In this document: piece by piece, positions 19,484-58,031 of the stretch | Position numbering within the stretch: position 1 is the stretch's first letter | How the letters are laid out: every line of letters starts with the position of its first letter | NCBI GenBank assembly: GCA_903831305.1 | Contig: CAIKXE010000005.1 | Location: forward strand, 11,288 to 75,287 | Reading direction: 5' to 3' | DNA from: an uncultured bacterium | GTDB lineage: Bacteria; Patescibacteriota; Minisyncoccia; Phycocordibacterales; GWA1-40-21 | DNA length: 64,000 nucleotides | Position numbers and translations under genes: made by a program | The notes under the pieces: generated by a model | Database searches by the model: none | Seen by the model: the letters and a program-made list of their open reading frames with translations, nothing else | Told to the model about the DNA's origin: nothing

Positions 19484-20229
19484 ATATTATAAATCATATC
19501 CTTGCGCTCTACGACCACCTTCCAACCATTTTTCTTAGCATGCGTATACAGCTTTTTATTCGGATTAAAACAGATCGGATTATCCACCATTTTGAGTAGC
19601 ACAATATCACTTTCCGTATCCCCCACTCCCACAGAACCATTAAGGGTGAGCCCTTCTTTTTCTACGGCTCGCAGTAGTACTTGGGACTTGTCAGAAATAA
19701 ATTCTTCAAATAAAGTCACCCCGGTGAATTTGTCATCCGCCCCTACTTCATATATTCGGCCGTAAGTTTTATCAAAACCATATTTCTTACAAAAGTTTTC
19801 TACCAACACCTGCGGTGAATGTGAAATAGCCAAGATAAAATAGTTTTTCTTTTTGAGTTCTTTAATCAGATCCCTGGTGTAAGTGTAAACCTTGTTGTTA
19901 TTCTCACTGATTACCTTTTCCGCAATCCTAGAAAACACTTTGGCATCTAGTCCCTTAATATTTTGCATAAAGGCTCGGACCACCGCCATGATATAGTCCT
20001 CATAACTCCCCTCGCGGTTCGTCCATTTTTCAAAAGCTTTCAGATATATATCTCTAGTATTCTCAGGGAATATTTTCTCTTTAATCAAGACCTCAACTAC
20101 TTCAATTAGTAAACTGGACCTAAAAATCGTCCCATCAATGTCAAACACCGCCACTTTTCTTTTGACACTTTTCCCCTCAGCCGGCTTGTTTTTAGATGTT
20201 TTACTCATATGGTAATTATACCACAGCAC
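19480..20229 (-). CDS. HAD-superfamily hydrolase (HAD-IB / phosphoserine-phosphatase-like)
   Basis: Motif I VAVFDIDGT and later HAD motifs (GVGDTESD). Overlaps alr by 4 nt. Confidence 0.65.
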   Translation of the reverse strand: MLWYNYHMSKTSKNKPAEGKSVKRKVAVFDIDGTIFRSSLLIEVVEVLIKEKIFPENTRDIYLKAFEKWTNREGSYEDYIMAVVRAFMQNIKGLDAKVFSRIAEKVISENNNKVYTYTRDLIKELKKKNYFILAISHSPQVLVENFCKKYGFDKTYGRIYEVGADDKFTGVTLFEEFISDKSQVLLRAVEKEGLTLNGSVGVGDTESDIVLLKMVDNPICFNPNKKLYTHAKKNGWKVVVERKDMIYNI

Positions 20230-20232
20230 CCC

Positions 20233-20278
20233 TTATTCTCAATTAACCCATTCGTACGAATGGGTTAATTGAGAATAA
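20233..20278. promoter_or_regulatory. 46-bp perfect palindrome (copy 1 of the ACCCATTCG-nn-CGAATGGGT motif) immediately upstream of the HAD gene and downstream of the ArsR gene
   Basis: TTATTCTCAATTAACCCATTCG-TA-CGAATGGGTTAATTGAGAATAA is exactly self-complementary over 22+22 nt. Confidence 0.6.
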
Positions 20279-20577: not shown

Positions 20578-20617
20578 TCCCCTATTATACACCTATATAT
20601 ACAATTATCCTCTATTC

Positions 20618-20636
20618 ACCCATTCGCGCGAATGGT
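20618..20636. promoter_or_regulatory. Palindromic motif copy 2 (ACCCATTCG-CG-CGAATGGT), ~40 nt upstream of the ArsR start
   Basis: 8-bp arms around CGCG. Flanks TAT TCACCC...GGTTCCATAGAC are shared with copy 3. Confidence 0.5.
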
Positions 20637-20794
20637 TCCATAGACTGGGGGGAACAAAGGTGAGACCTTGAATCTCCAAAAAGGTCTCACCTTAAAGAGT
20701 AGTCGAAATATTTTTAATAAAAGGTACCTTGCTGTGCCCGCCCGAAGCCATGTGTCCAGCGAGACATTAGCGAAGGAGGGACACCTTTTTTGCC

Positions 20795-21838
20795 TTATTT
20801 TAGCCTTTTTGCAAGATATTCTCTTTCTTTTCTAATAAATTCTGCTCCCTTTTGATAATCTCCATTATTCACAAAGTCTCTGACTCGACGCGGATTAATA
20901 CCATGCTTTTCAACGACATCCCATAATTTTTGGGCATTTCCATCTAAAGAAGCGGCTCGCATGATCTCTGGCCCAACCAATGTTTCCAATTCCCTGGATA
21001 GCGCAAATTCATCTCCGTTATTTATATGACCTTCCATGTATCTCTTCGTCTCGTCGTCTTCTGTGCTTTCCCGCATATCCTTAAATAATAATTCAGCCGA
21101 CAGATGATCGGTAATCATTTCGTTTAAATTTTTATTCTTCAATTCTCTCTTACCAGAAACCAAATCAATTCTTCCTGTTTGCACGCCAGAACAAAATTCA
21201 CAACAATTGTCATGAAACTCTATCTTACTAAAAGATATTGCGTGCATCATCTCGTGTAATAAAAAATGCCTTAAGGTCATCCGCCCAACAAATTCCCTGT
21301 ATCTATCGGGGTGCTCTTGCACAGTCTCCGCAATTATTTCGCGCAATTCTGCAATAAGTCGCTTATTAATGTTCACTTGATGCCTTTGAGGGTCATAAAA
21401 AATAATTCTCGCAAAACCATCTAGTCCAGTGGCGCTAATATAATTTTCATACTCATCTCCATCGATCAACGCATACCTTACATCGTCCAAGCGCTCCATC
21501 CTATCGGGATAATTAGTGGCAACCAACCTCAAGTTGTCTGTCACAGCTTTTTGGACCCAATCTATCCCCATATTTTCCGCCAATTCTCTAGAAAAACCTT
21601 CTACAGAAAGCGCATAGCTATCCCTGTCAATGAATTTGTAAAAATTTGTAGTGTCTATTGGGGCGCCATCCTTTATTAACAAATCGACAAGTTTTCCCGG
21701 AAAACCTATTTTAGTGCCTTGCAAATCTTCTTTCACGCTTTCTGCTAAATAAGCCAGCCTTTGCTGCAAATCAGTTGTGTCTGTCACTAGCGATGATTCA
21801 TTGGTGGTATTCACATCTCTATTTGCAGTTTCTACCAT
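20795..21838 (-). CDS. HExxH zinc metallopeptidase-like protein (HEMMH + downstream Cys cluster), hypothetical
   Basis: RHFLLHEMMHAISF followed by FHDNCCEFCSG. No signal peptide. GC is slightly higher than neighbours. Confidence 0.4.
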   Translation of the reverse strand: MVETANRDVNTTNESSLVTDTTDLQQRLAYLAESVKEDLQGTKIGFPGKLVDLLIKDGAPIDTTNFYKFIDRDSYALSVEGFSRELAENMGIDWVQKAVTDNLRLVATNYPDRMERLDDVRYALIDGDEYENYISATGLDGFARIIFYDPQRHQVNINKRLIAELREIIAETVQEHPDRYREFVGRMTLRHFLLHEMMHAISFSKIEFHDNCCEFCSGVQTGRIDLVSGKRELKNKNLNEMITDHLSAELLFKDMRESTEDDETKRYMEGHINNGDEFALSRELETLVGPEIMRAASLDGNAQKLWDVVEKHGINPRRVRDFVNNGDYQKGAEFIRKEREYLAKRLK

Positions 21839-21994
21839 AAATTTAAATTAGTTAATAATGATTATATTATAAACCCATTTCCCCGAGGATTCAAACCATC
21901 CATCTATTTTTTAAAAGGTTCCTGACACCTTTTTCTCCTTTTTTCTAAAACCTATTCGCCTATTTTGGCGAATGCAGTCAATTTTTTCCTATTT

Positions 21995-22013
21995 ACCCAT
22001 TCGTACGAATGGT
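21995..22013. promoter_or_regulatory. Palindromic motif copy 3 (ACCCATTCG-TA-CGAATGGT)
   Basis: Same core and the same flanks (TATTTACCC...GGTTCCATAAAC) as copy 2. An adjacent second palindrome ATTCGCC-tatttt-GGCGAAT sits at 21954-21973. Confidence 0.5.
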
Positions 22014-22106
22014 TCCATAAACCGTACGAAGTCTTTGGGTCAGGAGTAGTATGATTCCGACGATTATGAGTATGAATAGGATGATTTGTATGGTTTTCAT
22101 ATTGAT

Positions 22107-22280
22107 TAATTTTTGCTTTTTTCTTCGCCAATTTCACCTTTTCGGGTATTCTTTTCGATTTTTTCTAGCAACTCCTCTATTCTATTTATTTTCCAATACC
22201 ACAGAATAATTTCACGAAAAATAAAAAATGCAAACCCAACAATACCTATTCCGATCAAAATCAAACCAATATTACTCATG
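22107..22280 (-). CDS. Small single-TM protein (57 aa), hypothetical; not in the ORF track (<60 aa)
   Basis: Minus-strand ORF MSNIGLILIGIGIVGFAFFIFREIILWYWKINRIEELLEKIEKNTRKGEIGEEKSKN. It is AT-rich and lies directly downstream of the GmrSD gene. Confidence 0.3.
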
Positions 22281-22293
22281 ATATTAAATTTTT

Positions 22294-22470
22294 TTATTTA
22301 AATAAATTAATAAAAGCCTGTTTATAATCTCCACTATACAGATTTTGATTAATATTTCCAATATAGTTGCCGGACCCTGAATTATTATAAATCTTATCTG
22401 TCATAAAAAAATAAATACCTATTGATATAATTAGAAATAATATTAAAATATAGAGCCGTGCATTCTTCAT
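22294..22470 (-). CDS. Small secreted/TM protein (58 aa), hypothetical
   Basis: Minus-strand ORF MKNARLYILILFLIISIGIYFFMTDKIYNNSGSGNYIGNINQNLYSGDYKQAFINLFK with a signal-anchor-like N-terminus. Confidence 0.3.
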   Translation of the reverse strand: MKNARLYILILFLIISIGIYFFMTDKIYNNSGSGNYIGNINQNLYSGDYKQAFINLFK

Positions 22471-22532
22471 AGGGATATTATATCAAGGTTTTTAAATATA
22501 CAAAAGAAGTAAAAATAAATACTTTTCATACA

Positions 22533-24278
22533 TTATATTTTCCAAGCATCATTATATGCTCTTTTTGCAAGTTTTTTTGTTCTTTCGTTTATATTTTTAA
22601 TTACTTCATCAGATGTTTTCATTTTTTCATTTTTCCACTCGTTAATTAAAACTTTGACCTCAGGAAGATTTTGAATTTCCATTTCCTTAAAAGTATCAAG
22701 TTTTTCTTTAATATTTTTATTTTGTTCTGAACCATTCGTATGTTTACTTATAACCAAAAGGTTCCCTATACTATCGATGTACTCTCCAACTTCATCCTCA
22801 TTAAAATTATAATTATCCATATTTTGAGATATAAGATGATCTATATCATAATTTCTCCTAAGAAGCTTTTTGTCTGAGTTATAAATCTCAATATATTGTC
22901 CTCCTTTTCTGTCGATATTATTTAGACGATCAAAAATATAATAAATTAGATTTGAATTCAAGCCATATGTAAGTTCGGAAAACTTTTCGACAAATTCCCC
23001 TTCTTTTACCAGTTTTTCATCTCTTAATTCTTTATTAATTTTTTCAATAAAACTAATAAAATTATTTTTATTTACCTTTTCCCTACATTTGTCTGCATAG
23101 TATTTTTCTATTTGGTTCCCAGGTCTTTGGCAAATTGCGTAATTAATAAAATGAAACTTTTCTAACATATAAATAAATTCTCGGAATTTTTTTGATAATT
23201 TTTCCTTTATGTCTTTGTCATTTGTTAAGTCAATAATAGTTAAGAGTTTAACGATAAGGGGATATGCCTGTGTTACACCAAATAGCTGGAGAGCATCTAG
23301 GCTTCGATTCAAGGTTTTTGCCTCATATTCCTTCCTAAAAAAGTCATTTTTACTTTCAACTGCCCACTCCAAAATTGATTCATATGAGCAGCTAACTATT
23401 ATAGAATAAAAATATGAAAAATCCTTCATCTCAGATAATAATTTACTTGCCCCAATGTTTTCGCCATACTTTTTAAGAAGTTTAAATAATAATTTTTTTT
23501 GTACAAGCCCAAAAATAGACACATAAAAGTATTTAATCATTCGAAGAACATTTCCAGAAGAGTTTTCAATAATAGTATTCCAGTCCTCTTCTGTCTTTTT
23601 GGAATTATTATTTTGGAATAAATAGTTTTTTAATAAATCAGCGGCGTTTAATTCCATACCTCTTGCATTTGTTCTTTCAAATATATCAAATGCATCTTGT
23701 GTATCCTCAATTTCTATTTTTACAAAGGTACTTTCATATAATTTTTTCAGTAGCTCAGACAAATCATCCTTATTAAATTTTGAAATGTGCTCAATAAAAA
23801 AATCATAGAGGGGTTTAATCCTGTTTGTTTGCCTTTGTTTATTTTTTAAGTTAAAGCTTTTTCCGTCCCAGTCGTGATTAGTAATTGTCTCATTAAAAAC
23901 TTCAATGATTGATGATGAGGGTATTAGTTTTGATGAACTAGCCTTACCTGAGGTATCATCTATGAAGGAAATCTTAGACTGAATAGCAGATGCTAAATCA
24001 TGAGAGTTTAGCTTTATTGCTTGATATCTACATGCGGCTAAAAAAATAAAAATGGTCGTTATTCTTTGTTGACCATCAACTATCGAGATTTCAGCCTCTT
24101 TCTCATTATTTACGTCTAGTACTATTGTGCCTAGGAATACAGGCTCTGAAGAAACATCATCCCAAAATTCCTCTATCTGATCCTTTTTCCATTCAAAGTT
24201 TCTCTGATATTCTGGGACAACATATTTAACACTTTCATCTAGTAAACTCCTAACTTTCTTTAATTCAGATTTAATCAT
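22533..24278 (-). CDS. GmrSD-family type IV (modification-dependent) restriction endonuclease: N-terminal DUF262 (ParB/Srx-like NTPase) + C-terminal DUF1524 (His-Me finger/HNH-like nuclease)
   Basis: DUF262 motifs YQRNFEW and IVDGQQR at the N-terminus. C-terminal DIDHLISQN...GNLLVISKHTNGSEQNK fits DUF1524. Very AT-rich (~27% GC). Confidence 0.75.
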   Translation of the reverse strand: MIKSELKKVRSLLDESVKYVVPEYQRNFEWKKDQIEEFWDDVSSEPVFLGTIVLDVNNEKEAEISIVDGQQRITTIFIFLAACRYQAIKLNSHDLASAIQSKISFIDDTSGKASSSKLIPSSSIIEVFNETITNHDWDGKSFNLKNKQRQTNRIKPLYDFFIEHISKFNKDDLSELLKKLYESTFVKIEIEDTQDAFDIFERTNARGMELNAADLLKNYLFQNNNSKKTEEDWNTIIENSSGNVLRMIKYFYVSIFGLVQKKLLFKLLKKYGENIGASKLLSEMKDFSYFYSIIVSCSYESILEWAVESKNDFFRKEYEAKTLNRSLDALQLFGVTQAYPLIVKLLTIIDLTNDKDIKEKLSKKFREFIYMLEKFHFINYAICQRPGNQIEKYYADKCREKVNKNNFISFIEKINKELRDEKLVKEGEFVEKFSELTYGLNSNLIYYIFDRLNNIDRKGGQYIEIYNSDKKLLRRNYDIDHLISQNMDNYNFNEDEVGEYIDSIGNLLVISKHTNGSEQNKNIKEKLDTFKEMEIQNLPEVKVLINEWKNEKMKTSDEVIKNINERTKKLAKRAYNDAWKI

Positions 24279-24327
24279 ATATATATTATAGTACTAAATT
24301 ACAATCCTGACCATTTTTTAAGTATTG

Positions 24328-24564
24328 TCAATTAAATATTGTACCAGGATAATCTAGCATCCCAACTATTGATGACGTTCCATTAACGGCTGAAGATACT
24401 CTAATTAGGCCTCCAAAATTACTTGCAGAGTATGATTCTTCAAGGGAATGAGGTTCTTCTTTAGTAAGACATTTCTCACAAACCAGACTGACGCTACTGT
24501 TAATAGATAATAGTACAATGAACGTAGTTGCCCCACAAATTTTGCATTTGCTAGTTAGACCCAT
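24328..24564 (-). CDS. Small zinc-ribbon-like hypothetical protein
   Basis: CKICG...CEKC four-Cys arrangement. Lies between the copper module and the GmrSD gene on the same strand. Confidence 0.3.
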   Translation of the reverse strand: MGLTSKCKICGATTFIVLLSINSSVSLVCEKCLTKEEPHSLEESYSASNFGGLIRVSSAVNGTSSIVGMLDYPGTIFN

Positions 24565-24596
24565 AACTGTGATGATATCACAAAAAAGCTGATTGT

Positions 24597-25016
24597 CTAT
24601 TCAAAATCAATTTCTAATGGATACATACCCATACCGCAGGAGCCGCGGAAGAGGCCGGGAGTGGAGGTGCCGAGGGAGATGTCTGTGGTGCCGGTTTGGG
24701 GAAGAATTTTACTGAGGCCTAGGCTGGGTAGGCGGACAGATAAGGAACAGTCAAAGGTACCGTTGGTGCTGAAACGGATCACGGTGGGTATCCCCGCCTT
24801 ACCGAGGCTTCGTCTTGGGGAATAACCACCTTTGGCTTCTAGGGTGATGATTTGCACGCCGTTCTCCACGCTGACATTGTTGGTTGAAGTCACCGAGGAA
24901 ATTCCTTTTTGGGGATTCAAGGAATCACCTCGTTGGCTGTTTTTGAAATTCAGAAATATTATTCCACCGACAATTACTGCTACTATTATAATTGATATTG
25001 TAGTTGATTTATTCAT
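24597..25016 (-). CDS. Secreted cupredoxin-like domain protein (PF13473-like), putative copper-binding periplasmic protein
   Basis: Signal/TM anchor, then a beta-sandwich region IPTVIRFSTNGTFDCSLSV...GLFRGSCGMGMYPLEIDF typical of cupredoxin-like proteins found next to Cu-ATPases. Confidence 0.5.
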   Translation of the reverse strand: MNKSTTISIIIVAVIVGGIIFLNFKNSQRGDSLNPQKGISSVTSTNNVSVENGVQIITLEAKGGYSPRRSLGKAGIPTVIRFSTNGTFDCSLSVRLPSLGLSKILPQTGTTDISLGTSTPGLFRGSCGMGMYPLEIDFE

Positions 25017-25020
25017 ATTT

Positions 25021-26103
25021 TTAGAAGTTGAATACTGGCGATATTAGACCAATTATCACCAGGCTGTTAATAAGGTTGAATATACCGAAGAAGATGACGA
25101 TAAGGCCGGCGGTTTTGAAGAATATACCGCTTTGCGCCTTCTTGTGGATGCCAAGAGAGCTAAAGCTGAGTAAGGCGAGGACGGGCAAGGTACCAAGGGC
25201 AAAGGAAAACATAATCAGAGAACCAGTCCAAAAACTACCAGTGGACAGCGCATAGATCTGCATTGATTGCGTAAAACCACAGGGCAGGAAGAAAGTGATG
25301 ATACCCACTAAAATGGGTGTCAAGCTATGGTTTAGATTCTTCACGTTGTGGAACCTCTTGCCAATAAAGCTGGGAATGGTTGGCTGAAGCTTTTTAAGCC
25401 AAGGGAAAATGTCCAAGAGGTTTAGACCGAGGATAAGAAGGACAATGGCCACCAGGAAGCTCAGAATAAATGTGCCGGTACCGCCAAGCTGAAAGGACGA
25501 ACCAAGGAGGCCAATGACACCACCAAGGAGAAAGAAGGAAACTAAACGGCCAAGGTGAAACAGGACTTGGGGGCGGACTTTATCACCCGATTGTGCGAAG
25601 TTTGCCGACATGGAGAGGACGAGTCCCCCCACCACGGCCATACAGGAAGACACGGAGGCAATGAGGCCGATCATGAAGGCGGTGCTGTAACTAATTTGGG
25701 AAGCATTAATCAAATTTACAATGCCTAGTTTTTGCAGGAGGATGAAGAAGGTAATGAAAGCGATAGTGATAGGGATGGCGATTTTAAAATCTGACCATTT
25801 GGCCTGGTGAGCTTGTCTTTCTAGAAGCACGCTATAGCCGTGGGGTTTTAAAATTATGCTTAAATCCTGCGCAATATGTTCTGGTGTTTTATCACCAAAG
25901 TTCCCTGTTATTTCCACACTGTTATTTGTGAGTGACGGTTTGACGTTAGTCACTTCCGGTAACTCCTTCAACTCTGACTCAATGAGGATGGTGCAGGCCG
26001 TGCAATGCATGCCTTGGACGTGGAAGATGTATGTCTGGGGATTTCTTATCCCGTACGAAATTTTACTAGGGCAGTTTATTTTTATTTTATTTTCGTTATT
26101 CAT
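25021..26103 (-). CDS. HMA (heavy-metal-associated) domain fused to a DsbD/CcdA-like multi-TM domain
   Basis: N-terminal MxCxxC (GMHCTAC). The TM core has one Cys in an early helix (SSCMAVVGG) and one in a late helix (FFLPCGF), as in the CcdA/DsbD_2 family. Confidence 0.55.
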   Translation of the reverse strand: MNNENKIKINCPSKISYGIRNPQTYIFHVQGMHCTACTILIESELKELPEVTNVKPSLTNNSVEITGNFGDKTPEHIAQDLSIILKPHGYSVLLERQAHQAKWSDFKIAIPITIAFITFFILLQKLGIVNLINASQISYSTAFMIGLIASVSSCMAVVGGLVLSMSANFAQSGDKVRPQVLFHLGRLVSFFLLGGVIGLLGSSFQLGGTGTFILSFLVAIVLLILGLNLLDIFPWLKKLQPTIPSFIGKRFHNVKNLNHSLTPILVGIITFFLPCGFTQSMQIYALSTGSFWTGSLIMFSFALGTLPVLALLSFSSLGIHKKAQSGIFFKTAGLIVIFFGIFNLINSLVIIGLISPVFNF

Positions 26104-26151
26104 AAATTTATATTATATTTCGTTTCAATCTTAATGAATTTCTGACGGGAC

Positions 26152-28488
26152 TTACAGTTTTTTAGTTTTTAAACGCAGGGAGTTTGAGACCACGGAGACA
26201 CTACTACCCGCCATAGCAAGCCCAGCAAAGATAGGGTTCAGCATTATCCCCCACAGTGGGTACAAGAGGCCGGCCGCGATAGGTATGCCGACAATATTAT
26301 AAATAAACGCCCAGAATAAATTTTGCTTCACGGTGCGAATGGTGGCTTTGGCTAAAATTACTGCCTGCGCTATTTTCCGGATATCTCCACCCAGTAAAGT
26401 AATACCCGCGGACTCAATGGCTACATCCGTCCCGGTGGCCATGGCTATTCCCACATCCGCTTGGACCAAGGCTGGTGCATCATTGATGCCATCCCCAGCC
26501 ATAGCTACAATTCTCCCTTCAGCTTGCAACTCTTTGATTTTATTAGCCTTCTCGTGGGGTAGAACTTCCGCTATGACTTCATCAATCCCCGCTTGATCCG
26601 CAATGTGCTTGGCTGCCAGCTTGTTATCCCCAGTCAGCATGATGGTTTTCAGGCCCCTTTTATGCAGACTAACGATGGCTTGGACCGCTTCATCTTTCAA
26701 AGTATCCGCGAGAGCAATAAGGCCGATGGTTTGATTGTTTTGCTCTATTACTACCACTGTCTTGCCTTGCTTTTGAAGAGTGACTATTTCCGGTAAATTT
26801 AAATCTGCGGACTGTGGCTTATGGATGTCTATTTTTTCATTATTTATATTTCCTTCCACCCCCACGCCTTCCAAGGAATTAAAATCCTGAACATTGGCTA
26901 GTTCGATGTTTTCTTTTTTTGCCCGTTTTACAATAGCTTGAGCTAAGGGATGCTCAGAATGATTCTCCAGACTGGCAGATAATTCTAGGATTTTATTTTG
27001 GCTTAAACTTTTGTCTAAGATAATTATATCCGTCACTTCCGGTTCGCCTTTGGTGATAGTGCCGGTTTTGTCAAAGACGATAGTGGTGACCTGTGCCAGC
27101 CTTTCCAGGCTTTCCGCATTCTTGATCAAGATGCCGTATTGTGCGCCCTTACCCACGCCGACGATGATAGCCGTGGGGGTGGCGAGTCCCAGGGCACAAG
27201 GGCAAGCAATCACCAGGATGCCCACAAAGGAGACCAAGGCAAAAGATAGGGCTTGGGAGAACGGCATAAAATATGATCCAGCAATGAGCCAGGTACCAAG
27301 AGCCAGGATGGCCAGGCCAAGGACTATAGGCACAAAGACACTGGAGATTTTGTCTGCCAGGGCCTGGATAGGAGCCTTGGAACCTTGGGCTTCCGCTACC
27401 ATCTTGATGATTTGAGCGAGTACGGTATCACTGCCTACCTTGGTGGCTTTGAATTTAAAACTACCTTGCTTGTTTATAGTGGCGCCTACCACCTGATCAC
27501 CCACTACTTTATCTACCGGGATAGACTCGCCGGTAATCATAGCCTCATCAATAGCGGATTGCCCTTCTGTAATCTGTCCATCCACGGGGATTTTCATCCC
27601 AGGTTTGACGATAATAATATCCCCAATTTTGACTTCACTAATGGGGATTTCCACTTCTTGATTATTACGGAAGACCAGAGCGGTCTTGGCTTGGAGACCG
27701 ATGAGCTTCTCAATGGCGTCACCAGTTTTTAATTTTGAGCGGGCTTCCAGATATTTTCCGAGAGTAATAAATGCGATGACCACAATCACTACGTCAAAAT
27801 AAACTTGTTCCACATTTATAAATGATTTTAAACTTTCCTCAAAAGCACCCACAATAAAGCTGTAAAGGTAAGCCACGCTGGTGCCGAGGCCAATCAGGGT
27901 GTCCATATTGGCCTTACCATAACGGAAGAAGCGGTATAGACCAAGCAAATATGGCCGGCCAACAATAAATATGGTGTACGTGGCGAGAACGGGTAAAAGA
28001 TGATGAAAGAATTCACTCCAAAAGAGGGACATCTCTGGTACTGTTTTAAATTGGGCAAGAATATCCCAGGTCATGACAAAGATACTGACGAGGACCATGG
28101 GGATGAGGGTATAAAGCTTGATGCGCATATCCTTTAGCTCAGCTAGCTTTTCATTTTTGCTTTGATTTAAACCCAAATGAGCAGCGTGCTCATCAGCGGA
28201 CATGTGCATGGATTCAGCTGTGCCAGTCATCTCCATATCATGGGTCACGGGGATATCTAAAGTGTAGCCAAACTTTTCAATCTTGGCGGATAGATTTTCT
28301 GGCGAGGTTTTTGTCTCATCAAAAGAGAGTTTGACGGCCTCTGTTCCGTAACTAACATCCGCTGACTCTACTCCCGGTTCTTTTTTAAATGCCTTTTCAA
28401 TGATACTGGCACAGGAGGCGCAGTGCATACCCTTTATCTTGTAAATTTGATTTTTCATTTGTTTTTTTGTTACTTCTGACAGGATCAA
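26152..28488 (-). CDS. copA: Copper-translocating P1B-type ATPase (CopA-like)
   Basis: N-terminal HMA (GMHCASC), CPC motif ([12 protein letters not shown]), DKTGTIT, SEHP and [10 protein letters not shown]. Confidence 0.9.
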
Positions 28489-41893: not shown

Positions 41894-44800
41894 TTAATAA
41901 ATCTCACCACGTAAACGACGCCAAATAAAGAAAACAAACCAGCCCAAAAATAAGAGCCCCGTAAAATCAATCACATACCACCATTTGCCTAAACCACTAT
42001 TCTCAATCACGACAAATGGAGCGCTCGGTGCCGGTGGATTTTCACTAGGAATAATAGTTACTTCATTTTTATTCTTAATAGGATTTGGCTCCACTGTTTC
42101 TCCTGTCCCTGGTATGACCTTGGCTGGTGTTTCAATATTCTTGGTTGGTGAAATAACATCGGTCCTAGGTACAGTGATTAATACTGGGGCCGGGGCCAAC
42201 GGTATATTTACCACTGGACTGACCGGTACCAAAACCGGCTGGTAACCACGACTACCAGTGGTGTTTGACACTCTAGTGACGGGCAAAGTAGCCGAGGTAT
42301 TATTGACTCCGCTTCGGCCCAAGGCGTTCACCGCACTAATCCTAAAATCATAACTCACATTATTTGTCAGCCCGGTTATAGTAACGGTAGTGACCACGGA
42401 CACCCCATCCGCAAAGATTGTCCACACCGCTGGTTCACTCGTCAGCTTATATTCAATCACATAATCCGTGATATCTAATCCCCCATCATCAGCTGGAGCC
42501 AGCCAAGACAAAACGACACTCGTATTCCCCGCCACCGCCGTTACGCCACTTGGGACATCCGGCACAGAAACCGGTGTCACCGAGTTTGAAGGTGGAGAGG
42601 AAGATAATCCGGTGCCGATAATATTAGTGGCGGTCATGGTGAAGGTATAGGCGGTGCCATTCGTCAGCCCGGTCACTACAATCGGCGTAGTCAGTCCGGT
42701 CCCCGTCAAACCGCCAGGGCTAGAAGTGACAGTATAATTGGTAATAGCGGTTCCACCATTGGAAGCGGGAGCGGTGAATGAAATTGTAGCCTCAGCATTA
42801 CCGGCCACGGCTGAGACCCCTGTTGGTGGATCCGGGAAGGTGGCCACGGCCGTAAAGGATGAAAAAGCATACGATGATTGCGAACCATACAAGACACTGA
42901 TATGAAAATAATATTCCCCCGGAGTCAGTACGGTAGAGGTAGCCGTAAAGTCATAATTTTCATGCGAATCAATAAGTTTGGCATTAGAAGCACCAAAAAC
43001 ATCATTCCCTCCTCCACACAGATTATCCACGGCATCCGTCACACACCAAGTATATTGATATTCATATTCCACCAAACCTTCATTGGTAATTCGAATATTT
43101 GTACCGATACTGGAGTTAGTCAAATCAGGAAAACCTTGAATAAAAACTTGGGCCGGTTCACCAGGCGTGGCACTGACCGAATCACTCACCGTACTAGTAC
43201 CAATAATATTTTTAGCACTGACCCGGAAATCATATGACGTACCGTTAGACAATCCGATCACATTGGCAAACTTATCCACGCTTTCTCCATCATCAAATGC
43301 CACCCAGCTACCGCCCGTCGTCAGCTCATACTCAATAACATAATCTGTAATAGCACTCCCGCCCGTGGAAGCCGGGTCAGACCAAGTCAAATCAATACGG
43401 CTACCTTTTACCACGGCAGCGAGATTAAGGGGGGCGCTAGGCGCCGTTGGCAAAGTGATAGCGGAGGAAGGATCAGAAGCCAGGCCGTCCCCCACATCAT
43501 TTACAGCTATCACGGTGAAAGTATAAGTGCCTCCATTGGTCAGACCAGTCATAATATGAGAAAGACCCGTTGAACTAGCATTAGAATCCGTCCCACCATT
43601 ATTGGAATAAACAGTATAGCCGGTAATGGCACTACCACCAGTGGATAAAGGCGCAGAGAAAGTTACCGTGGCCTGGGCATTACCCGCCACGGCCGTAACT
43701 CCGGTGGCCTTACCCGGCACGGTGGCTGGTGTCACGGGATTTGACGAAGTAGAAACCGGTCCATCACCAGCCACATTGGTCGCTTTCACCGTAAAAGTGT
43801 ACTCAGTACCATTGGTCAGTCCACTGATAATAATCGGCGAGGCACTACCAGTCTGAATAATTGCTTGTGGATCAGAGGTGACCGTATAGCCAGTGATTAT
43901 AGAACCACCGTCAGAAATAGGAGCCGTAAAACCAACCGTCACCTGACCATTGCCGCGTAAAACACTGGTGATGACCGGCTGACCGGGGACAGTCCTTGGC
44001 GTGCTACTTACGGGTGGATCACTTGGTGCTCCTGTCCCCGCGGAGTTATAGGCCGAAACTCGGAAGTCATATAGAGAACCATTTACCAGATCCACAACCG
44101 TAATTGTGATGGCTGGTGAGGCCGGATGACCAAACTGTGTCCAGCTTTCAGCTGTGTGCAGTTTATATTCAATAACATAATTACTAATTTCCGCCCCATT
44201 ATTGGCGGGGGCTGTCCAAGATAAATCTGCCGAGGCATTGCCTGGTGTGGCCGTAAGTCCAGAAGGGATTCCCGGCACTCCCGCCGGCGTCACCGGGCTC
44301 GAAGATACTGAGGTTTCCGAAGTACCCACCACATTGGTGGCCGTCATGGTAAAAGTATAGGGCGTGCCATTGGTCAAACCAGTCACAATGACCGGTGAAG
44401 TACTGCTTGAGCTGACAATTGATTCTGGGTCTGAGGTAACCGTATAATTGATAATTTCACTTCCCCCGTTTGTCGCCGAGTTACTTACATTCTCCTCCCC
44501 CGCCACTGCATAAAATGTCGCCGGTGAGCTTTGGTTATTATATTCGGTTTTAATCCAGTCCGCTGTACGGACAGTATTAGTTATGCGAACTTCATCGATA
44601 ATGCCGTCAAAATATCTCTCAAACGTTGCAACGTCTTGGACTCCGATTTCAAGCTTATGTGTGTGATCAGGAAGACTTCCTGAACGAGGTGTGGTGTCTA
44701 CTAATAGACCATTTTTATACAGACGTGCATTGGTACCATCATAGGTAACAACAAAATATGCTAAAACGTCTTGTGTGAGCTGACCAGCTACTGTAATCCC

Positions 44801-47800
44801 ATTTAAAACCGTGTCATCGACATCATAAACGATGCTCGTGCCAGAAGTTTGTAGCGTGTAGCCTCCGCTAGTACTGTATCCATTTTTTCCAACAATGGTG
44901 TCTCGATTAGACGCAGTGACATCATGTGGGCTTACCCAGGAGCCAAAAGTAAGCGCGGTTCCCGTGACCACTTCAGCATCACCAATGTCTATATATTTAC
45001 TGGATCCATTAAAACTCCCAGCCCCATTAATTTTTCCTGAGCTCGTTGCTGTTACTCCATGATTCGTTCCGTTATTTACACCCGTCGAATCAACCGAATT
45101 GGTCGGATCGGCCAAATGCCAAACACCTTTGAAATAACTACTACCACCATCATCCCACACTTTTTGTGAGCCGTAAGCCGAGCTTGGCGATGGCTCTGAA
45201 GTTGCCGAAGAGTTACCATAATACATATATATATCTGTATTGGCTGAAGTAGAAAGCACTGGCACTTTGACCCACGCCACCAGCGTGCCAGCTGAATATG
45301 ATTCTATTTCTCTAGCTAATTCTGTAGTGCCATTTGAATCCGTAAACCTAATATCGGTACCGTTAGCATTTATATTTGAGAGACCGGTGAGCGACACCAA
45401 AACCGGAAAATTTGTCTGATTAGTATTCGGCACCTTTGTCTTATCAATCGTAATCTTTTTTCGGTAAAGCCAAGCTTGGTTATACCACACCCCAGCAGAG
45501 GAAACGGTAGGATACGGCAGTGGTGTAAAATTCACTGTCACCTGCCGGTCACCACTTACCGCGCTAGTGATAACCGGCTTTCCGGGAATTGTTTTTGGTG
45601 TACTATTTACTAGTGGTGAACTGGGGCTTCCACTACCCACCGCATTTCTGGCCGTAATTCTAAAATCATAAGACGTACCATTGATTAATCCTGAAATTAC
45701 TGTGGCCGTAATCACGGGTGTCTCTGGGTCAGAATAAATCTGCCAGCTGGCCGGTATGTCAGAAGCGCTGGTAAGTTTGTATTCAATAATATAATCCGTA
45801 ATAGCACTGCCACCATTTGAGGCCGGTGCGGACCATAAAACAGACACTTGTCTATCTCCCGCCGTTGGTGTTACGGCTGTTGGCGCTCCAGGTACAGTGG
45901 CGGGTGTAACGCTGTTTGAAGCCGACGATGCTGGTCCCGTACCCATCACATTGGTGGCTGTCACCGTGAAAGTATAAGGGGTACCATTCGTCAGTCCAGT
46001 GACAATAATCGGTGAGGTGGTGCTGGCGCTGGTAAAACCCCCGGGGCTAGAAGTGACCGTATAAGCGGTAATCGCACTTCCCCCATTAGTGGCTGAATTT
46101 GCCACATTTTCTACTCCCGCCACCGCATAAAATGTCCCCGGCGAGCTTTGGTTATTGTATTCAGTTTTAATCCAATCCGCCGAGCGGGCGGTGTTAGATA
46201 TTTTCACTTCGTCGATGGAGCCATTGAAATAATATGAAGCAATACCTCCTATATTTAAATCAGAAGTAGTTCCTGAAAAATTACTTGCTCCGGATTTATT
46301 TGTCCATAAAACTCCATCAAGATAAATATTCATTGAATTATTTATAGAACTTGAAGTAAGAGTATAATAATGCCAGTTATTATCTGCGCAGTTTGAAGGA
46401 TTTGATTTAGATAATCTTCCATTAACAGCTGCATTACCAAAATCCCAATAAGTATTACCATTAGAATAACACGGATGAAAATTCATACGATTATTAAAAT
46501 TATCTGGATTAAGGATTAATGCAGCTTGTTGAGAAGTTTTATTCATCTTTAACCATATACCTATTGTTATTTCTGAAACTGGAGCAACATTTCCAAAGTT
46601 AGATATTTTAACATAATTCCCCGTTCCATTAAAACTCCCAGCCCCAGCGATTTGCCCTGAAGAAGTTGCTGTTACTCCATTATTCGTTCCATTATTCACT
46701 CCAGTGGAATCAGTACTTGTGGAAGCTCCCGCATTTGCCAAATGCCACACGCCTTTAAAATAATTACTCCCGCCATCATCCCAGACTTTTTGTGAACCAT
46801 AAGTCGAGCTGGGTGAAGGTTCTGAAGTTTGTGACGAGTTCCCATAATACATATAAATATCTGTATTGGCCGAAGTGGAAAGTGTAGGTACTTTTACCCA
46901 AGCCACCAGTGTACCCGCCGAATATGATTCTATTTCTCTAGCTAATTCTGTAGTTCCTGTTGAATCAGTAAATCTAATGTCTGTACCGTTAGCGTTTATA
47001 TTTGAGAGACCAGCGAGCGAGACCAAAACCGGGAAATTAGTTTGATTAGTATTCGGCACCTTTGTTTTATCTATTGTTATCTTCTTTCTATACGTCCAAC
47101 TATTGTTATACCACGGTGCAACGGAAGGGCTAGGTAGCAGGGTAAATGACACGCTAGCCTGCGCATTCCCCGCCGTCGCCGTACCAATAGTCGGCGCTCC
47201 CGGAATGGTGGCGGGTGTAGCCGTCACGGTGGCGCTCGCACTACCTTGACCAAGGGCGTTCACCGCGGACACACGGAAGTCATATGAAGTTCCATTGACC
47301 AAACCGATAATCGTAAAAGTGGTGGTGGTAGAAACCCCATCGGCATAAGTACTCCAGGTGGAAGTGGAATTTAATTTATAATCAATCACATAGTCCGTCA
47401 GTGCCAAGCCCCCGGTATTCCCCGGTGCCGTCCACAATAAACCTATTTGTGTATTCCCCGCCGTCGGCGTTAGTCCCGTCGGCGCATCCGGCACCGTCGC
47501 TGCTTCTTCTGTTGCGGATATCGCAAATGTCCCCGGCGAACTTTGATTATTGTATTCTGTCTTTATCCAATCCGCGGATCGGGCAACGCTAGAGATACGG
47601 GATTCATCAACTAGACCCAGAAAATCATAACCATTATTACTCGCGATTCTACCGATTCTTCTATAGTTATTTTTTAAATTTGCACTATTATAAGTTTCAC
47701 TTACTTTAATTACTCCATTAACGTAAAGTACGGAAGAATTTGAAGAATTATATGTCAGAACCACATGTGACCAACTACCTAATGTAGTAACTCCTGAACC

Positions 47801-56745: not shown

Positions 56746-57027
56746 TCATTTATCTGACTTTTTATCCGTCTTGGCTTCCTGCTCGATCTCTTTCATATAT
56801 TTTTTCAAAATAGTAAAGATTTGAAACATAGATACGATAAAAGACACGCCCACACAAATAAGCAAATACCGTGGGGCGGTAGCGAAACGATAATCTAAAT
56901 ATTTTCCGAGAATAAGCGAGAGAATGATCGGCCAGAGAATCCACCAGGAGACCTTGGAAAAAATCAGGATGGCTGGTTTCCACCACACTTCCACTACTGG
57001 CGACTGATCTGTCCGCTCCTTTTCCAT
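56746..57027 (-). CDS. AtpI/AtpZ-like small membrane protein at the head of the ATP synthase operon
   Basis: 93 aa with two TM helices, immediately upstream of atpB with a 1-nt gap. Confidence 0.45.
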   Translation of the reverse strand: MEKERTDQSPVVEVWWKPAILIFSKVSWWILWPIILSLILGKYLDYRFATAPRYLLICVGVSFIVSMFQIFTILKKYMKEIEQEAKTDKKSDK

Positions 57028-57110
57028 AGCGCTAAATATAGCATATTCCCCGCTGAATAATAATTGACAATTTTATTTGGAGTGACGTAAAACCTAATTC
57101 ATTTTCTCTG

Positions 57111-57154
57111 CGCACATTAAAAAAGCGGCCTTAGAGCCGTTTTTTTAATGTGCG
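57111..57154. terminator. Long hairpin (14-bp outer stem + inner GC stem) between repeated element copy 1 and the ATP synthase operon
   Basis: CGCACATTAAAAAA-GCGGCcttagaGCCGt-TTTTTTAATGTGCG, T/A-rich on both strands. Confidence 0.55.
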
Positions 57155-57470
57155 TCGGGTTGAAACATGAGTACATTTCTCGAAGCTTACAGCTTCAGTA
57201 CAGGTTTCCCAAAATTTTGAAATATGAATTTCTAAATTTTATGGGAGAACCTTTTCGAGTCCAACACGTAAGCAGGTAATCCTGCTTACTCCGGCAACAA
57301 AAAAATTGCCTTTCAGCAATTTCTTTTGTGCGGAGTACTGGATAATGTTAGAACTGAGTTGATGAAAAGCAAGGTAATTCCGCATATACCTAATCTATCT
57401 AAATGGGCTCAGAAACAAGGGTTAAATTACCCTACACCACCAAGCACTATATAATCTAGTCTAACTGATT
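57150..57470. repeat. Copy 1 of a repeated structured non-coding element (~320 nt)
   Basis: Shares four ordered conserved blocks with 60693-61293 (AACATGAGTACATTTCTCG..TTACAG; TTCGAGTCCAAC.ACG.AAGCA; GTGCGGAGTACTGGA..ATGTTAGAACTGA; TTACCC.ACACC). Hairpins have compensatory changes. No ORF. Confidence 0.6.
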
Positions 57471-58031
57471 CTATAAGCCAATAATCCCCCTTGCCACCCA
57501 CCCAACAACTAATATACCTACTCCATTAGCGATGAATGATATTAGTAAAAACGTTTTGTCTTTTATTTTTGATAAACCAAGCATCGCCACACCAATCTCA
57601 TCTGGAAAAGGAGAAGCAATAATTAAAGCGGCAATAAACGGAGTAAAGAATATAAATAAACGTGTTTTAAATATAGCAAAAAAACGCTTTGTTTTTTGAA
57701 AGGAAAGTAAGTAATTAATATCCTCTGAAATTCTATCTTTAACAAAACGAAAAATAATATAATCCCCCAAGGCAGCGCCTAAACCACCAATAATAGCTAC
57801 CATAATAAGTGGGGTTGTTTGTACCAAAACTCCAATTAACACAATAGCTGGAGCGGTGGTAAAGAAAGAAGTAAAAAACATTCCAGCAATAAGTATCGTC
57901 AGCCAACTTAAGCCATCAAAGGAATAAATAAATCTCTCAATTATTCCAGTTCTTAATGCTACAAGGGCAATACCAATACTTATTAGTAGGAATATAATGT
58001 CCTGGAATAATTGTTTTTTATTATTTTTCAT
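57471..58031 (-). CDS. DedA/TVP38-like small integral membrane protein
   Basis: 186 aa, 4-5 TM helices, with a GAALGDYIIFRFVKDR motif reminiscent of the DedA family. Confidence 0.4.
   Translation of the reverse strand: MKNNKKQLFQDIIFLLISIGIALVALRTGIIERFIYSFDGLSWLTILIAGMFFTSFFTTAPAIVLIGVLVQTTPLIMVAIIGGLGAALGDYIIFRFVKDRISEDINYLLSFQKTKRFFAIFKTRLFIFFTPFIAALIIASPFPDEIGVAMLGLSKIKDKTFLLISFIANGVGILVVGWVARGIIGL

What the first reader, a model, noticed from the sequence alone, without database searches (positions are those of the whole stretch)
22107..24564. AT-rich defense islet: GmrSD-type (DUF262 + DUF1524) type IV restriction enzyme with satellite small ORFs
The 581-aa protein at 22533-24278 has the DUF262 ParB/Srx-like NTPase motifs (YQRNFEW, DGQQR) at its N-terminus. 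Its C-terminus has a DUF1524 His-Me finger nuclease (DIDHLISQN...SKHTNGSEQNK). This is the architecture of GmrSD/BrxU-like modification-dependent restriction enzymes. The segment is about 27% GC, far below the window average. It is bracketed by a zinc-ribbon mini-ORF (24328-24564) and two ~58-aa single-TM ORFs (22107-22280 and 22294-22470). It lies between the palindrome-delimited cassettes and the copper module. This points to a laterally acquired anti-phage gene in a variable region.
Basis: partly seen in the sequence, partly recalled or inferred. Interest (0 to 1): 0.55.

Follow-up and report, generated by a model that had tools for sequence, protein, structure and literature searches.

The report
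Single-gene GmrSD-like defence nuclease islet
A candidate-phylum (Patescibacteria) bacterium carries, in an AT-rich and strain-variable stretch of DNA, one intact gene for a GmrSD/HEC-06-type anti-phage nuclease; this is an ordinary new member of a known family, and the small neighbouring ORFs are not its partners.

Summary
A 581-aa ORF lies at 22533-24278 (minus strand). It carries DUF262/GmrSD_N (E 1.6e-39) and DUF1524/GmrSD_C (24.6 bits, just above the cutoff of 23). All catalytic motifs are intact, and the gene sits in the lowest-GC stretch of the window (0.29 vs 0.41).

The best defence-family match is HEC-06, full length, E 1e-63. HEC-06 is a validated single-gene GmrSD-like defence, and one of its homologs restricts only cytosine-modified T-even phages. 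A confident AlphaFold model (pLDDT 88) matches only DndI, SspE and BrxU.

Relatives at 54-67% identity occur in five other Patescibacteria contexts, all different. Each is 7-16 GC points below its flanks, and none has a conserved partner or dnd/ssp genes.

The "satellite" ORFs are not a system:
- zn78 is an orphan.
- tm58 is unsupported and is cut by a strain breakpoint.
- tm57 belongs to a widespread small-membrane-protein family that was not found beside any of the five homologs examined.

Relatives of the adjacent gene p347 carry other AT-rich cargo in the same position (a type II methyltransferase, a Schlafen-like helicase), so the region is variable. No "empty site" genome was found.

Verdict: new member of a known kind. 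Modification dependence is inferred, not shown. Low interest.

The parts
22533..24278 (-). 581-aa GmrSD-like (HEC-06-type) NTPase-nuclease gene
   Evidence: ORF. Pfam GmrSD_N and GmrSD_C. PADLOC HEC-06 E 1e-63, covering residues 2-576 of the protein and positions 7-553 of the 558-position model. 560 homologs at E<=1e-5. AlphaFold2 model with pLDDT 88.3. Foldseek matches DndI, SspE and BrxU only.
23616..24248 (-). DUF262 / GmrSD_N ParB-like NTPase domain (residues 11-221)
   Evidence: PF03235 E 1.6e-39. Q25, R26, D68-G69-Q70-Q71-R72 and F200-E201-R202..N204-A205-R206-G207 are invariant in the 32-sequence alignment A1.
22620..22976 (-). DUF1524 / GmrSD_C His-Me finger nuclease domain (residues 435-553)
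   Evidence: PF07510 at 24.6 bits against a cutoff of 23. H481, G505, N506 and N515 are invariant and N520 is >=90% conserved. The region aligns to the nuclease motifs of DndI (9JFL) and of the 818-residue PDB chain 20yv. The model shows strand 477-481, strand 507-511 and helix 512-518.
24285..24313 (-). promoter-like site (TGGTCA-17-TATAAT) ending 6 nt before the ATG, a geometry that fits a leaderless transcript
   Evidence: Consensus scan, 10 of 12 matches, and sequence read. This is a pattern match only; function is inferred.
24328..24564 (-). zn78: 78-aa orphan ORF with CxxC..CxxC (possible zinc ribbon); belongs compositionally to the islet; coding status uncertain
   Evidence: ORF. GC3 is 0.228. 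It matches only itself among 5.8 billion proteins. Only sub-threshold zinc-ribbon Pfam hits, E 0.07-0.2. 3% of shuffles give an ORF this long. Absent from about 80 copper-module loci and from the homolog loci.
22294..22470 (-). tm58: 58-aa ORF with one hydrophobic N-terminal stretch; probably not a conserved gene
   Evidence: ORF. No family hit. Its cluster holds only itself and a truncated gene call. The strain breakpoint at 22404-22421 falls inside it. 30% of shuffles give an ORF of this size. A large-database homolog search was not run.
22106..22279 (-). tm57: 57-aa single-TM protein of a widespread small-protein family (motif RE.xxWYWKINxIxxLLxxIExNT); not linked to the nuclease
   Evidence: 501 representative proteins at E<=0.001. 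Alignment A2 has invariant R22, W27, Y28, K30, L37, L38, I41, N44 and T45. No Pfam family. Not found beside any GmrSD homolog.
22404..22421 (.). strain-level breakpoint about 110-130 nt downstream of the nuclease stop codon
   Evidence: L002/L091 are 100% identical to the window down to 22421 and then diverge. L117 and L118, from two other assemblies, start exactly at 22404. A sister contig has a 172-aa gene on the opposite strand here.
22040..24596 (.). low-GC segment (0.288) holding zn78, the nuclease gene, tm58 and tm57
   Evidence: The right edge is the cupredoxin stop at 24597. The left edge lies between the palindrome at 21982-22022 and the tm57 stop at 22106.
21982..22022 (.). palindrome 3 (core CCATTCGTACGAATGG) at the p347-side edge of the segment; more likely part of the p347 regulatory region than a cassette junction
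   Evidence: Only 3 copies in the window, against 0.1 expected. In L088 the same palindrome lies in a 99-nt module repeated before and after p347. It is absent from L103 and L104, whose homology to the window stops at 21924-21938.

Best explanation
The 581-aa protein is a standalone, single-polypeptide defence nuclease of the GmrSD-like superfamily, in the HEC-06-like subfamily.

Proposed mechanism, by analogy with characterised relatives:
- The N-terminal ParB-like DUF262 domain binds and hydrolyses NTP through its DGQQR motif. This drives a conformational change across a long helical linker.
- That change licenses the C-terminal DUF1524 His-Me finger (D480-H481, N506, N515) to nick or cut invading DNA.
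- The most likely target is DNA carrying a phage-type base hypermodification, which would make the enzyme a type IV restriction enzyme that needs no cognate methyltransferase.

The gene was acquired laterally as a small AT-rich unit. It sits in a strain-variable stretch between the copper-resistance module and the lineage-specific gene p347. The flanking small ORFs (zn78, tm58, tm57) are not components of the system.

Shown here: the architecture, the intact catalytic residues, the fold, the subfamily assignment, the varied contexts of relatives, the AT shift, the lack of conserved partners, and the strain breakpoint.

Inferred: enzymatic activity, anti-phage role, modification dependence, and the direction and timing of transfer.
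For: Domains and defence-family match:
- Pfam GmrSD_N scores E 1.6e-39, and GmrSD_C scores above its cutoff.
- PADLOC HEC-06 scores E 1e-63 end to end. That is well ahead of Orf5 (1.7e-46), SspE (8e-13), mREase_IV (1.3e-9) and HEC-05/BrxU (1e-8).

Sequence conservation:
- In a 32-sequence alignment spanning 35-67% identity, these residues are invariant: Q25, R26, DGQQR, FER.NARG, D214, K217, N218, H481, G505, N506 and N515.

Structure:
- A profile search of PDB sequences aligns full length to DndI 9JFL (E 2.5e-21). It also matches the DUF262 and HNH regions of other DUF262 proteins, SspE and BrxU.
- The AlphaFold2 model has mean pLDDT 88.3.
- The 12 significant Foldseek PDB hits are all DndI (TM 0.58), SspE or BrxU.

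Literature:
- HEC-06 protects E. coli from phages as a single gene. Its DGQQR (Q79A, R80A) and EH (E471A, H472A) mutants lose protection (bioRxiv 10.1101/2024.01.29.577857).

Context of relatives:
- Six different contexts were seen for the clade, at 54-100% identity. One lies between grpE and dnaK, and one lies beside a type II R-M pair. No partner recurs.

No partner modification genes:
- No dnd, ssp, DNA-methyltransferase or recombinase domain appeared among the window ORFs scanned or annotated. ORFs between 49.6 and 55.6 kb were not scanned.

Composition:
- The gene's GC is 0.289 and its GC3 is 0.24, against 0.41 for the window.
- Relatives are 7-16 GC points below their own flanks in all six loci.

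Variable region:
- p347 relatives with about 92% nucleotide identity carry different AT-rich cargo immediately upstream. One has a type II MTase (E 6e-111) plus unknown ORFs. The other has MazG-like plus a SLFN-type helicase/S24 peptidase.
- There is a breakpoint at 22404-22421.
Against: - Modification dependence is not demonstrated for this protein or for its Patescibacteria clade. The nearest solved structure by both sequence profile and fold (DndI) uses the opposite logic: it attacks unmodified DNA, and host phosphorothioate protects self DNA.
- The GmrSD_C Pfam score is marginal (24.6 vs 23). The precomputed annotation of the exact protein lists only PF03235.
- The nuclease motif reads DIDHLISQ rather than the usual (D/E)H..P(Q).
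- No genome of the same lineage lacking the gene was found. All contigs of this population that reach the site carry it. 'Insertion' therefore rests on composition and on more distant comparisons.
- Only about 64 kb of the genome was inspected for partner modification genes.
- A uniform AT shift across all relatives could be an intrinsic property of the gene family rather than a mark of recent transfer.
Confidence: 0.78

Rival explanations
1. DndI-like restriction component. The nuclease attacks unmodified foreign DNA, and host DNA is protected by a backbone (phosphorothioate) or other modification made by genes elsewhere in the genome. Host marks stimulate the NTPase, which releases the enzyme from self DNA.
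For: DndI (9JFL) is the only solved structure that aligns full length by sequence profile (E 2.5e-21). It is also the best global fold match (TM 0.58 against 0.34 for BrxU). The Tyr of the YQR motif, which is the phosphorothioate-sensing Y25 in DndI (PMC11662687), is present as Y24.
Against: No dnd, ssp or cysteine-desulfurase genes appear in the parts of the 64-kb window that were annotated. None lie within 8-10 kb of the homologs in the five other contexts. DndI is toxic without phosphorothioate modification (PMC11662687), which fits poorly with a gene that hops alone between genomes. PADLOC scores HEC-06 57 bits above the next family. The YQR tyrosine is general to DUF262, so it does not discriminate.
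Confidence: 0.1
2. A multi-gene system. zn78 (a zinc-ribbon regulator or antitoxin) and/or the small membrane proteins tm58 and tm57 work together with the nuclease, for example as a sensor, anchor or immunity factor.
For: All four ORFs are co-oriented and share low GC3 of 0.20-0.28. zn78 has a CxxC..CxxC pair, its own promoter-like site, and an ORF length reached by only 3% of shuffles. tm57 is a real conserved protein.
Against: None of the three has a detectable relative beside any of the five other homolog contexts or in about 80 copper-module loci. zn78 has no homolog in 5.8 billion proteins. tm58 is interrupted by the strain breakpoint, while the nuclease is kept in both variants. tm57's family has 501 representatives, far broader than this nuclease clade. 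HEC-06 works as a single gene (bioRxiv 10.1101/2024.01.29.577857).
Confidence: 0.06
3. The gene is a non-defence or decaying passenger: a relic, or a housekeeping nuclease (for example for nucleotide scavenging) that is AT-rich by chance.
For: The GmrSD_C score is marginal. No partner genes or other recognised defence genes lie directly adjacent in this window.
Against: The ORF is full length with every family-invariant residue intact. The model is confident. Sporadic distribution in different contexts is typical of defence genes, not housekeeping genes. Relatives lie next to R-M genes.
Confidence: 0.04

Closest known systems
HEC-06 (Hma-embedded candidate 06; PADLOC family, Payne et al. bioRxiv 10.1101/2024.01.29.577857)
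   Same: Single polypeptide of about 560-580 aa with DUF262, a helical linker and DUF1524. The window protein gives a full-length HMM match (E 1e-63). It has the DGQQR and acidic-His nuclease motifs that are essential in HEC-06, lacks the BrxU RLFDS motif, and acts without a partner gene.
   Different: Here the gene is not embedded in an Hma, BREX or type I R-M system; it stands alone between metal-resistance and lineage-specific genes. The nuclease motif is DIDHLISQ rather than EHICP. The host is a Patescibacteria MAG. Activity is untested.
DndI of Salmonella enterica Cerro 87 (PDB 9JFL; PMC11662687)
   Same: Nearest solved structure: full-length profile alignment (E 2.5e-21) and best global fold match (TM 0.58). 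Same two-domain layout, DGQQR NTPase motif and HNH-type nickase.
   Different: DndI works with IscS-DndBCDE phosphorothioation, is co-transcribed with dndFGH, and is toxic without phosphorothioate. No dnd genes were found here or near the relatives. Sequence identity is only about 16%.
SspE (PDB 6JIV, 7DRR/7DRS)
   Same: DUF262 N-terminal domain with DGQQR, and a DUF1524-type C-terminal nuclease. Foldseek E 1e-11. Profile hit on the N-terminal domain, E 3e-12.
   Different: SspE is about 770 aa, depends on SspABCD phosphorothioation, and is activated by sensing it. Only the first ~90 residues align by sequence, and TM is 0.43 or lower.
BrxU / classical GmrSD (PDB 7P9K; Eco94GmrSD, EcoCTGmrSD), type IV restriction enzymes
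   Same: Same Pfam domain pair and overall logic: an NTP-dependent nuclease that in those enzymes cuts hmC or glucosyl-hmC DNA.
   Different: These are distant relatives. PADLOC HEC-05 scores 1e-8 and mREase_IV 1.3e-9, both partial. PDB 7P9K scores E 8.8e-5 over about 50 residues, and TM is 0.34. The RLFDS nucleotide-binding motif is absent, and there is no BREX context.

Membership tests
GmrSD-like superfamily (DUF262 + DUF1524 fused nucleases) | N-terminal DUF262/ParB-like domain with the DGQQR NTP-hydrolysis motif | tested here: met
   PF03235 E 1.6e-39, residues 11-221. DGQQR at 68-72 is invariant in A1.
GmrSD-like superfamily (DUF262 + DUF1524 fused nucleases) | C-terminal DUF1524 His-Me finger with acidic-His, then Asn, then Asn | tested here: met
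   PF07510 at 24.6 bits against a cutoff of 23, so marginal. D480-H481, N506 and N515 are invariant across homologs and align to the HNH motifs of solved members.
GmrSD-like superfamily (DUF262 + DUF1524 fused nucleases) | Fold similar to solved members, with a helical linker between the two domains | tested here: met
   AlphaFold2 pLDDT 88.3 with helices across residues ~227-453. The 12 significant Foldseek PDB hits are all DndI, SspE or BrxU.
GmrSD-like superfamily (DUF262 + DUF1524 fused nucleases) | NTP-dependent endonuclease activity | not testable with these tools
   Needs purified protein.
Type IV (modification-dependent) restriction enzymes | Cleaves only DNA carrying a base modification; no cognate methyltransferase | tested here: inconclusive
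   No methyltransferase is adjacent or among the annotated window ORFs, which is consistent with type IV. Substrate preference itself cannot be tested here. It is inferred from HEC-06Bact (PMC12366544) and is contradicted as a general rule by DndI (PMC11662687).
HEC-06 (PADLOC) | Full-length match to the HEC-06 profile, better than to any other defence family | tested here: met
   PDLC04157 scores E 1e-63, 213.8 bits, covering protein residues 2-576 and model positions 7-553 of 558. The next family, Orf5, scores 157 bits.
HEC-06 (PADLOC) | Functions as a single gene, with no obligate partner | tested here: met
   Six contexts with no recurring neighbour. That it functions at all is untested.
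HEC-06 (PADLOC) | Embedded within Hma, BREX or type I R-M operons (how the family was discovered; not a strict requirement) | tested here: not met
   The neighbours are cupredoxin/DsbD2/CopA on one side and small ORFs plus p347 on the other.
DndI / phosphorothioate-dependent DUF262-DUF1524 nucleases | Genomic association with dndBCDE (+/- dndFGH) or sspABCD | tested here: not met
   None in the annotated ORFs of the 64-kb window or within 8-10 kb of five homologs. The rest of the genome was not seen.
BrxU | RLFDS nucleotide-binding motif and BREX embedding | tested here: not met
   RLFDS is absent. There are no BREX genes. Similarity to 7P9K is weak.
Integron-type gene cassette (considered because of the flanking palindromes) | attC site with R''/R' (RYYYAAC / GTTRRRY) boxes and extrahelical bases, plus an IntI integrase and attI nearby | tested here: not met
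   The palindromes read ..AATTAACCCATTCGTACGAATGGGTTAATT.., with no R'/R'' consensus, and copy 1 is a perfect 46-nt palindrome. No recombinase domain appears among the annotated ORFs. There is no palindrome on the cupredoxin side of the nuclease. Copy 1 overlaps the -35 of the best promoter-like site. In L088 the palindrome is part of a repeated 99-nt promoter module.

The most novel reading that the evidence does not exclude
The nuclease may occupy one slot of a recombinase-independent, or trans-serviced, cassette hotspot in Patescibacteria. In that hotspot, short AT-rich defence units (GmrSD-like here; a type II methyltransferase set or a Schlafen-like helicase in relatives) would be swapped next to the lineage-specific gene p347. 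The exchange would involve the CCATTCG..CGAATGG palindromes and/or the AAGGTGAGACC hairpin element as recombination or boundary signals. The 27-nt inverted copy of that hairpin inside the cupredoxin gene would then mark an old junction. This would be a previously undescribed way of building defence islands in ultra-small genomes that lack obvious integrases.
Probability: 0.08. Interest if true: 0.6.

Novelty: new member of a known kind. Interest (0 to 1): 0.22.

Why it matters
The find adds a Patescibacteria (CPR) clade to the HEC-06-like branch of GmrSD-type nucleases. Closest relatives are 54-67% identical, and all are single genes in different contexts.

CPR bacteria have tiny genomes and few recognised defence systems. 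A partner-free, self-contained nuclease that can land anywhere, even between grpE and dnaK, is a cheap form of immunity for them. If the enzyme is modification-dependent, it would imply that their phages use hypermodified DNA.

The find also serves as a caution. The DUF262+DUF1524 architecture alone does not tell whether an enzyme attacks modified DNA (GmrSD, BrxU, HEC-06Bact) or unmodified DNA (DndI). None of this is unexpected to a specialist.

Tried and rejected
- **Single-sequence search of PDB sequences:** no hit at E<=1. A profile was needed.
- **Empty-site search:**
  - 80 genome loci with the copper module are too divergent (62-75% identity on DsbD2) and share no further synteny.
  - Exact-protein look-ups of the cupredoxin, the nuclease and tm57 returned only this population, and always with the gene.
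  - Contigs that end inside the gene are 100% identical up to their ends, so they probably reflect AT-rich or low-coverage breaks rather than deletion variants.
- **Metagenome scan with p347:** gave only two short contigs.
- **Small-ORF conservation beside homologs:** all cross-locus BLASTP hits were noise, with E>=0.002 in a tiny database.
- **Phage carriage:** viral contigs hold only relatives at 21-27% identity. One PHROG of unknown function matches full length.
- **RNA genes as integration targets:** no tRNA or tmRNA and no Rfam family in the window, L103, L104 or L089.
- **Integron/attC reading of the palindromes:** rejected (see the membership test).
- **L088 as a circular cassette:** rejected. 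It has a 99-nt direct repeat, but its first 6 nt differ.
- **Provenance of PADLOC 'Orf5':** could not be established from the papers held.
Full report
**Observation**

The 581-aa ORF lies at 22533-24278 on the minus strand. Three small co-oriented ORFs flank it: zn78 at 24328-24564, tm58 at 22294-22470 and tm57 at 22106-22279.

The quoted motifs are present: YQRNFEW at residue 24, DGQQR at 68, DIDHLISQN at 478 and IGNLLVISKHTNGSEQNK at 504.

This is the lowest-GC 2.5-kb stretch in the 64 kb, with z = -3.1. All four ORFs have GC3 of 0.20-0.28, while the neighbouring genes have 0.37-0.55. The low-GC segment runs from about 22040 to the cupredoxin stop at 24597.

**What the protein is**

Pfam finds GmrSD_N (PF03235, E 1.6e-39) and GmrSD_C (PF07510, 24.6 bits against a curated cutoff of 23, so only a marginal pass).

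Against PADLOC's defence models the best hit is HEC-06. It matches end to end at E 1e-63, covering protein residues 2-576 and model positions 7-553 of 558. It scores ahead of 'Orf5' (1.7e-46), SspE (8e-13), the classical type IV model mREase_IV (1.3e-9, partial) and HEC-05/BrxU (1e-8).

The family is large, with 560 proteins at E<=1e-5. The top hits at 54-67% identity include proteins named from Candidatus Paceibacteria and Nomurabacteria, so the host is a Patescibacteria (CPR) bacterium. The genome loci recovered with the neighbouring copper module agree with that.

An alignment of 32 homologs spans 35-67% identity to the window protein. The invariant residues are Q25, R26, D68-G-Q-Q-R72, F200-E-R, N204-A-R-G207, D214, K217, N218, H481, G505, N506 and N515. 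The catalytic apparatus of both domains is therefore intact. The weak Pfam score for the C-terminal domain reflects divergence, not decay.

The closest clade writes the nuclease motif as DIDHL(I/V)SQ. Deeper relatives write it as NIEHxxPQ.

**Structure**

A single-sequence search of PDB sequences found nothing. A profile built from the alignment gave these hits:
- 9JFL, full length, E 2.5e-21.
- An 818-residue 'DUF262 domain-containing protein' (chain 20yv), over both its N-terminal and HNH regions.
- SspE, N-terminal domain only.
- BrxU 7P9K, weakly, at E 8.8e-5.

9JFL is DndI of Salmonella (PMC11662687).

An AlphaFold2 model built from the alignment is confident, with mean pLDDT 88.3 and pTM 0.66. 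In a Foldseek search of the PDB, the 12 significant matches are all DndI (TM 0.58/0.57), SspE (E 1e-11) or BrxU (TM 0.34). Everything below them is noise.

**What is known about these relatives**

HEC-06 was found embedded in Hma systems. As a single gene it reduced plaquing of several coliphages. Its Q79A/R80A (DGQQR) and E471A/H472A (nuclease) mutants lost protection. It shares only 23.7% identity over 11% coverage with BrxU and lacks BrxU's RLFDS motif (bioRxiv 10.1101/2024.01.29.577857). The window protein also lacks RLFDS.

A Bacteroides homolog, HEC-06Bact, is 22% identical to HEC-06. It defended against T-even phages but not against T4-GT7, which cannot modify cytosine. This indicates modification-dependent restriction (PMC12366544).

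DndI has the same architecture but works the other way. It nicks DNA regardless of modification, is toxic in cells that lack phosphorothioate, and is released from self DNA when phosphorothioate stimulates its ATPase (PMC11662687).

The architecture therefore fixes the machinery (NTPase-gated His-Me nuclease) but not the target rule.

I favour the type IV reading for three reasons. HEC-06 is the best-scoring family. The gene travels alone. No dnd, ssp, DNA-methyltransferase or recombinase domain was found among the annotated ORFs of the window or within 8-10 kb of five homologs. The target rule remains an inference.

**Mobility and the variable region**

The exact protein occurs on several contigs of one population (ENA BUCK21-1 samples, JGI and NCBI copies), always in the same context.

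Its relatives sit elsewhere:
- P0004 (65%) lies next to a complete type II R-M pair (MTase_II E 1e-121; a DUF262-HNH REase_II E 2e-134) and a PIN protein.
- P0011 (62%) is wedged between grpE and dnaK.
- P0017 (61%) follows a TspO gene.
- P0010 (65%) is near a TraG/VirD4-like ATPase and a RelB.
- P0021 (54%) lies among small ORFs and an NYN protein.

In all six loci the gene is 7-16 GC points below the rest of its locus.

On one side of the window segment, the CopA-DsbD2-cupredoxin trio is a conserved module in about 80 Patescibacteria loci. None of them has the nuclease or the small ORFs beside it.

On the other side lies p347, a rare HExxH-containing protein. Only four clusters at 84-100% identity were found for it. 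Two relatives have about 92% nucleotide identity across p347, and that homology stops about 90-100 nt upstream of the gene. Beyond that point each carries different AT-rich cargo:
- One has a Dam-type type II methyltransferase (E 6e-111), a YCII protein and a 210-aa unknown.
- The other has a MazG-like protein, a 713-aa ResIII/Schlafen-type helicase with an S24 peptidase domain (weak hits to Nhi and PDC candidates) and a 289-aa unknown.

Within the population itself there is a breakpoint 110-130 nt past the nuclease stop codon. One contig diverges at 22421 into an ORF on the opposite strand; a sister contig has a 172-aa gene called there. Two other assemblies start exactly at 22404.

Together these results support 'laterally acquired gene in a variable region'. 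What I could not obtain is a close relative with an empty site.

**The small ORFs**

zn78 has a CxxC..CxxC pair and a promoter-like site. It matches only itself among 5.8 billion proteins and has only sub-threshold zinc-ribbon hits. A stop-free stretch of its length arises in 3% of shuffles of that spacer. It may be a young gene or a remnant.

tm58 has no support. An ORF of that size arises in 30% of shuffles, and the strain breakpoint lies inside it. I did not run a large-database homolog search for it.

tm57 is real. An exhaustive search found 501 representative proteins at E<=0.001, and they share the motif RE.xxWYWKINxIxxLLxxIExNT after a single TM helix. No Pfam family covers it.

None of the three has a relative beside any of the five homolog contexts or in the copper-module loci. 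They are neighbours, not satellites.

**The palindromes**

The core CCATTCGnnCGAATGG occurs three times in the window and nowhere else, against 0.1 expected. The copies lie just upstream, in the direction of transcription, of the HAD gene, the ArsR-family gene and p347.

Copy 1 is a perfect 46-nt palindrome that overlaps the -35 of the best promoter-like site in the region (11 of 12 matches). In contig L088 the palindrome is part of a 99-nt module repeated before and after p347. That module holds the palindrome, a second hairpin and a promoter-like site.

There is no palindrome on the cupredoxin side of the nuclease, and no integrase was found in the window. I therefore read the palindromes as operator/promoter elements, possibly for the adjacent ArsR-family regulator, and not as attC-like cassette junctions. 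The segment is not 'palindrome-delimited' in a mechanistic sense.

**Verdict**

The gene is an ordinary, well-preserved new member of a known and experimentally validated family, and it has no associated partner genes. Interest is low (0.22).

The residual novelty lies in how AT-rich defence units are exchanged next to p347 in these tiny genomes, and my evidence does not yet define a mechanism for that.

Noticed in passing
window 20233-20278, 20605-20644, 21982-22022: Three copies of a palindrome (core CCATTCGnnCGAATGG; copy 1 is a perfect 46-nt palindrome) lie just upstream of the HAD, ArsR-family and p347 genes. Copy 1 overlaps the -35 of an 11-of-12 promoter-like site. They look like operators, perhaps for the adjacent ArsR-family regulator, rather than cassette junctions.
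   Followed up: partly
L088 7-105 and 1267-1365: A 99-nt module (palindrome, second hairpin CATTCGCCAAAAATGGCGAATG, and a TTGAAT..TATAAT promoter-like site) is repeated at 100% identity before and after the p347 homolog. The contig is not circular, because its first 6 nt differ.
   Followed up: partly
window 20795-21838 (-); L103, L104, L088, L089: p347 is a 347-aa protein with an HExxH motif (LLHEMMH) and a sub-threshold DUF4344 metallopeptidase hit. It is extremely rare: only four clusters at 84-100% identity among 5.8 billion proteins. Its flanks differ on both sides in L103 and L104, so it may itself be mobile.
   Followed up: partly
window 20656-20704 and 24904-24930; L104 3348-3397 and 4032-4079: A hairpin element (AAGGTGAGACCTT..AAGGTCTCACCTT) lies downstream of p347 and recurs twice in L104. 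Its first 27 nt match, inverted, 24 of 27 bases to a site inside the intact cupredoxin gene (0 of 100 shuffles). The two copies bracket p347 plus the whole low-GC segment. This is unexplained.
   Followed up: partly
window 22106-22279 (-): tm57 belongs to an apparently undescribed but widespread family of 50-140-aa single-TM proteins with a nearly invariant WYWKIN..(L)L..IE.NT motif. The family has 501 representatives at 50% clustering and no Pfam model.
   Followed up: partly
window 24276-24313 and 20206-20242 (-): Both the nuclease gene and the HAD gene (at its alternative 242-aa start) have a TATAAT -10 box ending exactly 6 nt before the ATG and no Shine-Dalgarno sequence. This geometry fits leaderless transcripts.
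   Followed up: no
window 24597-28488 (-); L008-L087: The CopA-DsbD2(HMA)-cupredoxin trio is conserved as a module at 62-75% (DsbD2) identity in about 80 Patescibacteria MAGs of many classes. Some of those MAGs are labelled Gammaproteobacteria or Saccharibacteria. Flanks vary between them, which suggests the copper module is itself widely exchanged.
   Followed up: partly
L005 10001-11749 (also L006, L007): A 62%-identical homolog of the nuclease is inserted, with a 99-aa ORF, between grpE and dnaK of an otherwise standard grpE-dnaK-dnaJ operon.
   Followed up: no
window 23279-24312: Five contigs from different assemblies end inside or just before the AT-rich nuclease gene while staying 100% identical to the window. 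This probably reflects coverage or assembly dropout in AT-rich DNA rather than structural variants.
   Followed up: yes
window 57000-64000: A second low-GC stretch (0.30-0.36) holds a P-type cation ATPase (963 aa), an archaeal-type S-adenosylmethionine synthetase (PF01941), a VTT-domain protein and two ORFs with no Pfam hit (345 and 134 aa).
   Followed up: partly
window 41894-48712 (-): A giant 2272-aa protein has about 10 fibronectin type III repeats, three Laminin_G_3 (concanavalin-like) domains and three DUF2341 domains. It is probably a surface or adhesion protein.
   Followed up: no
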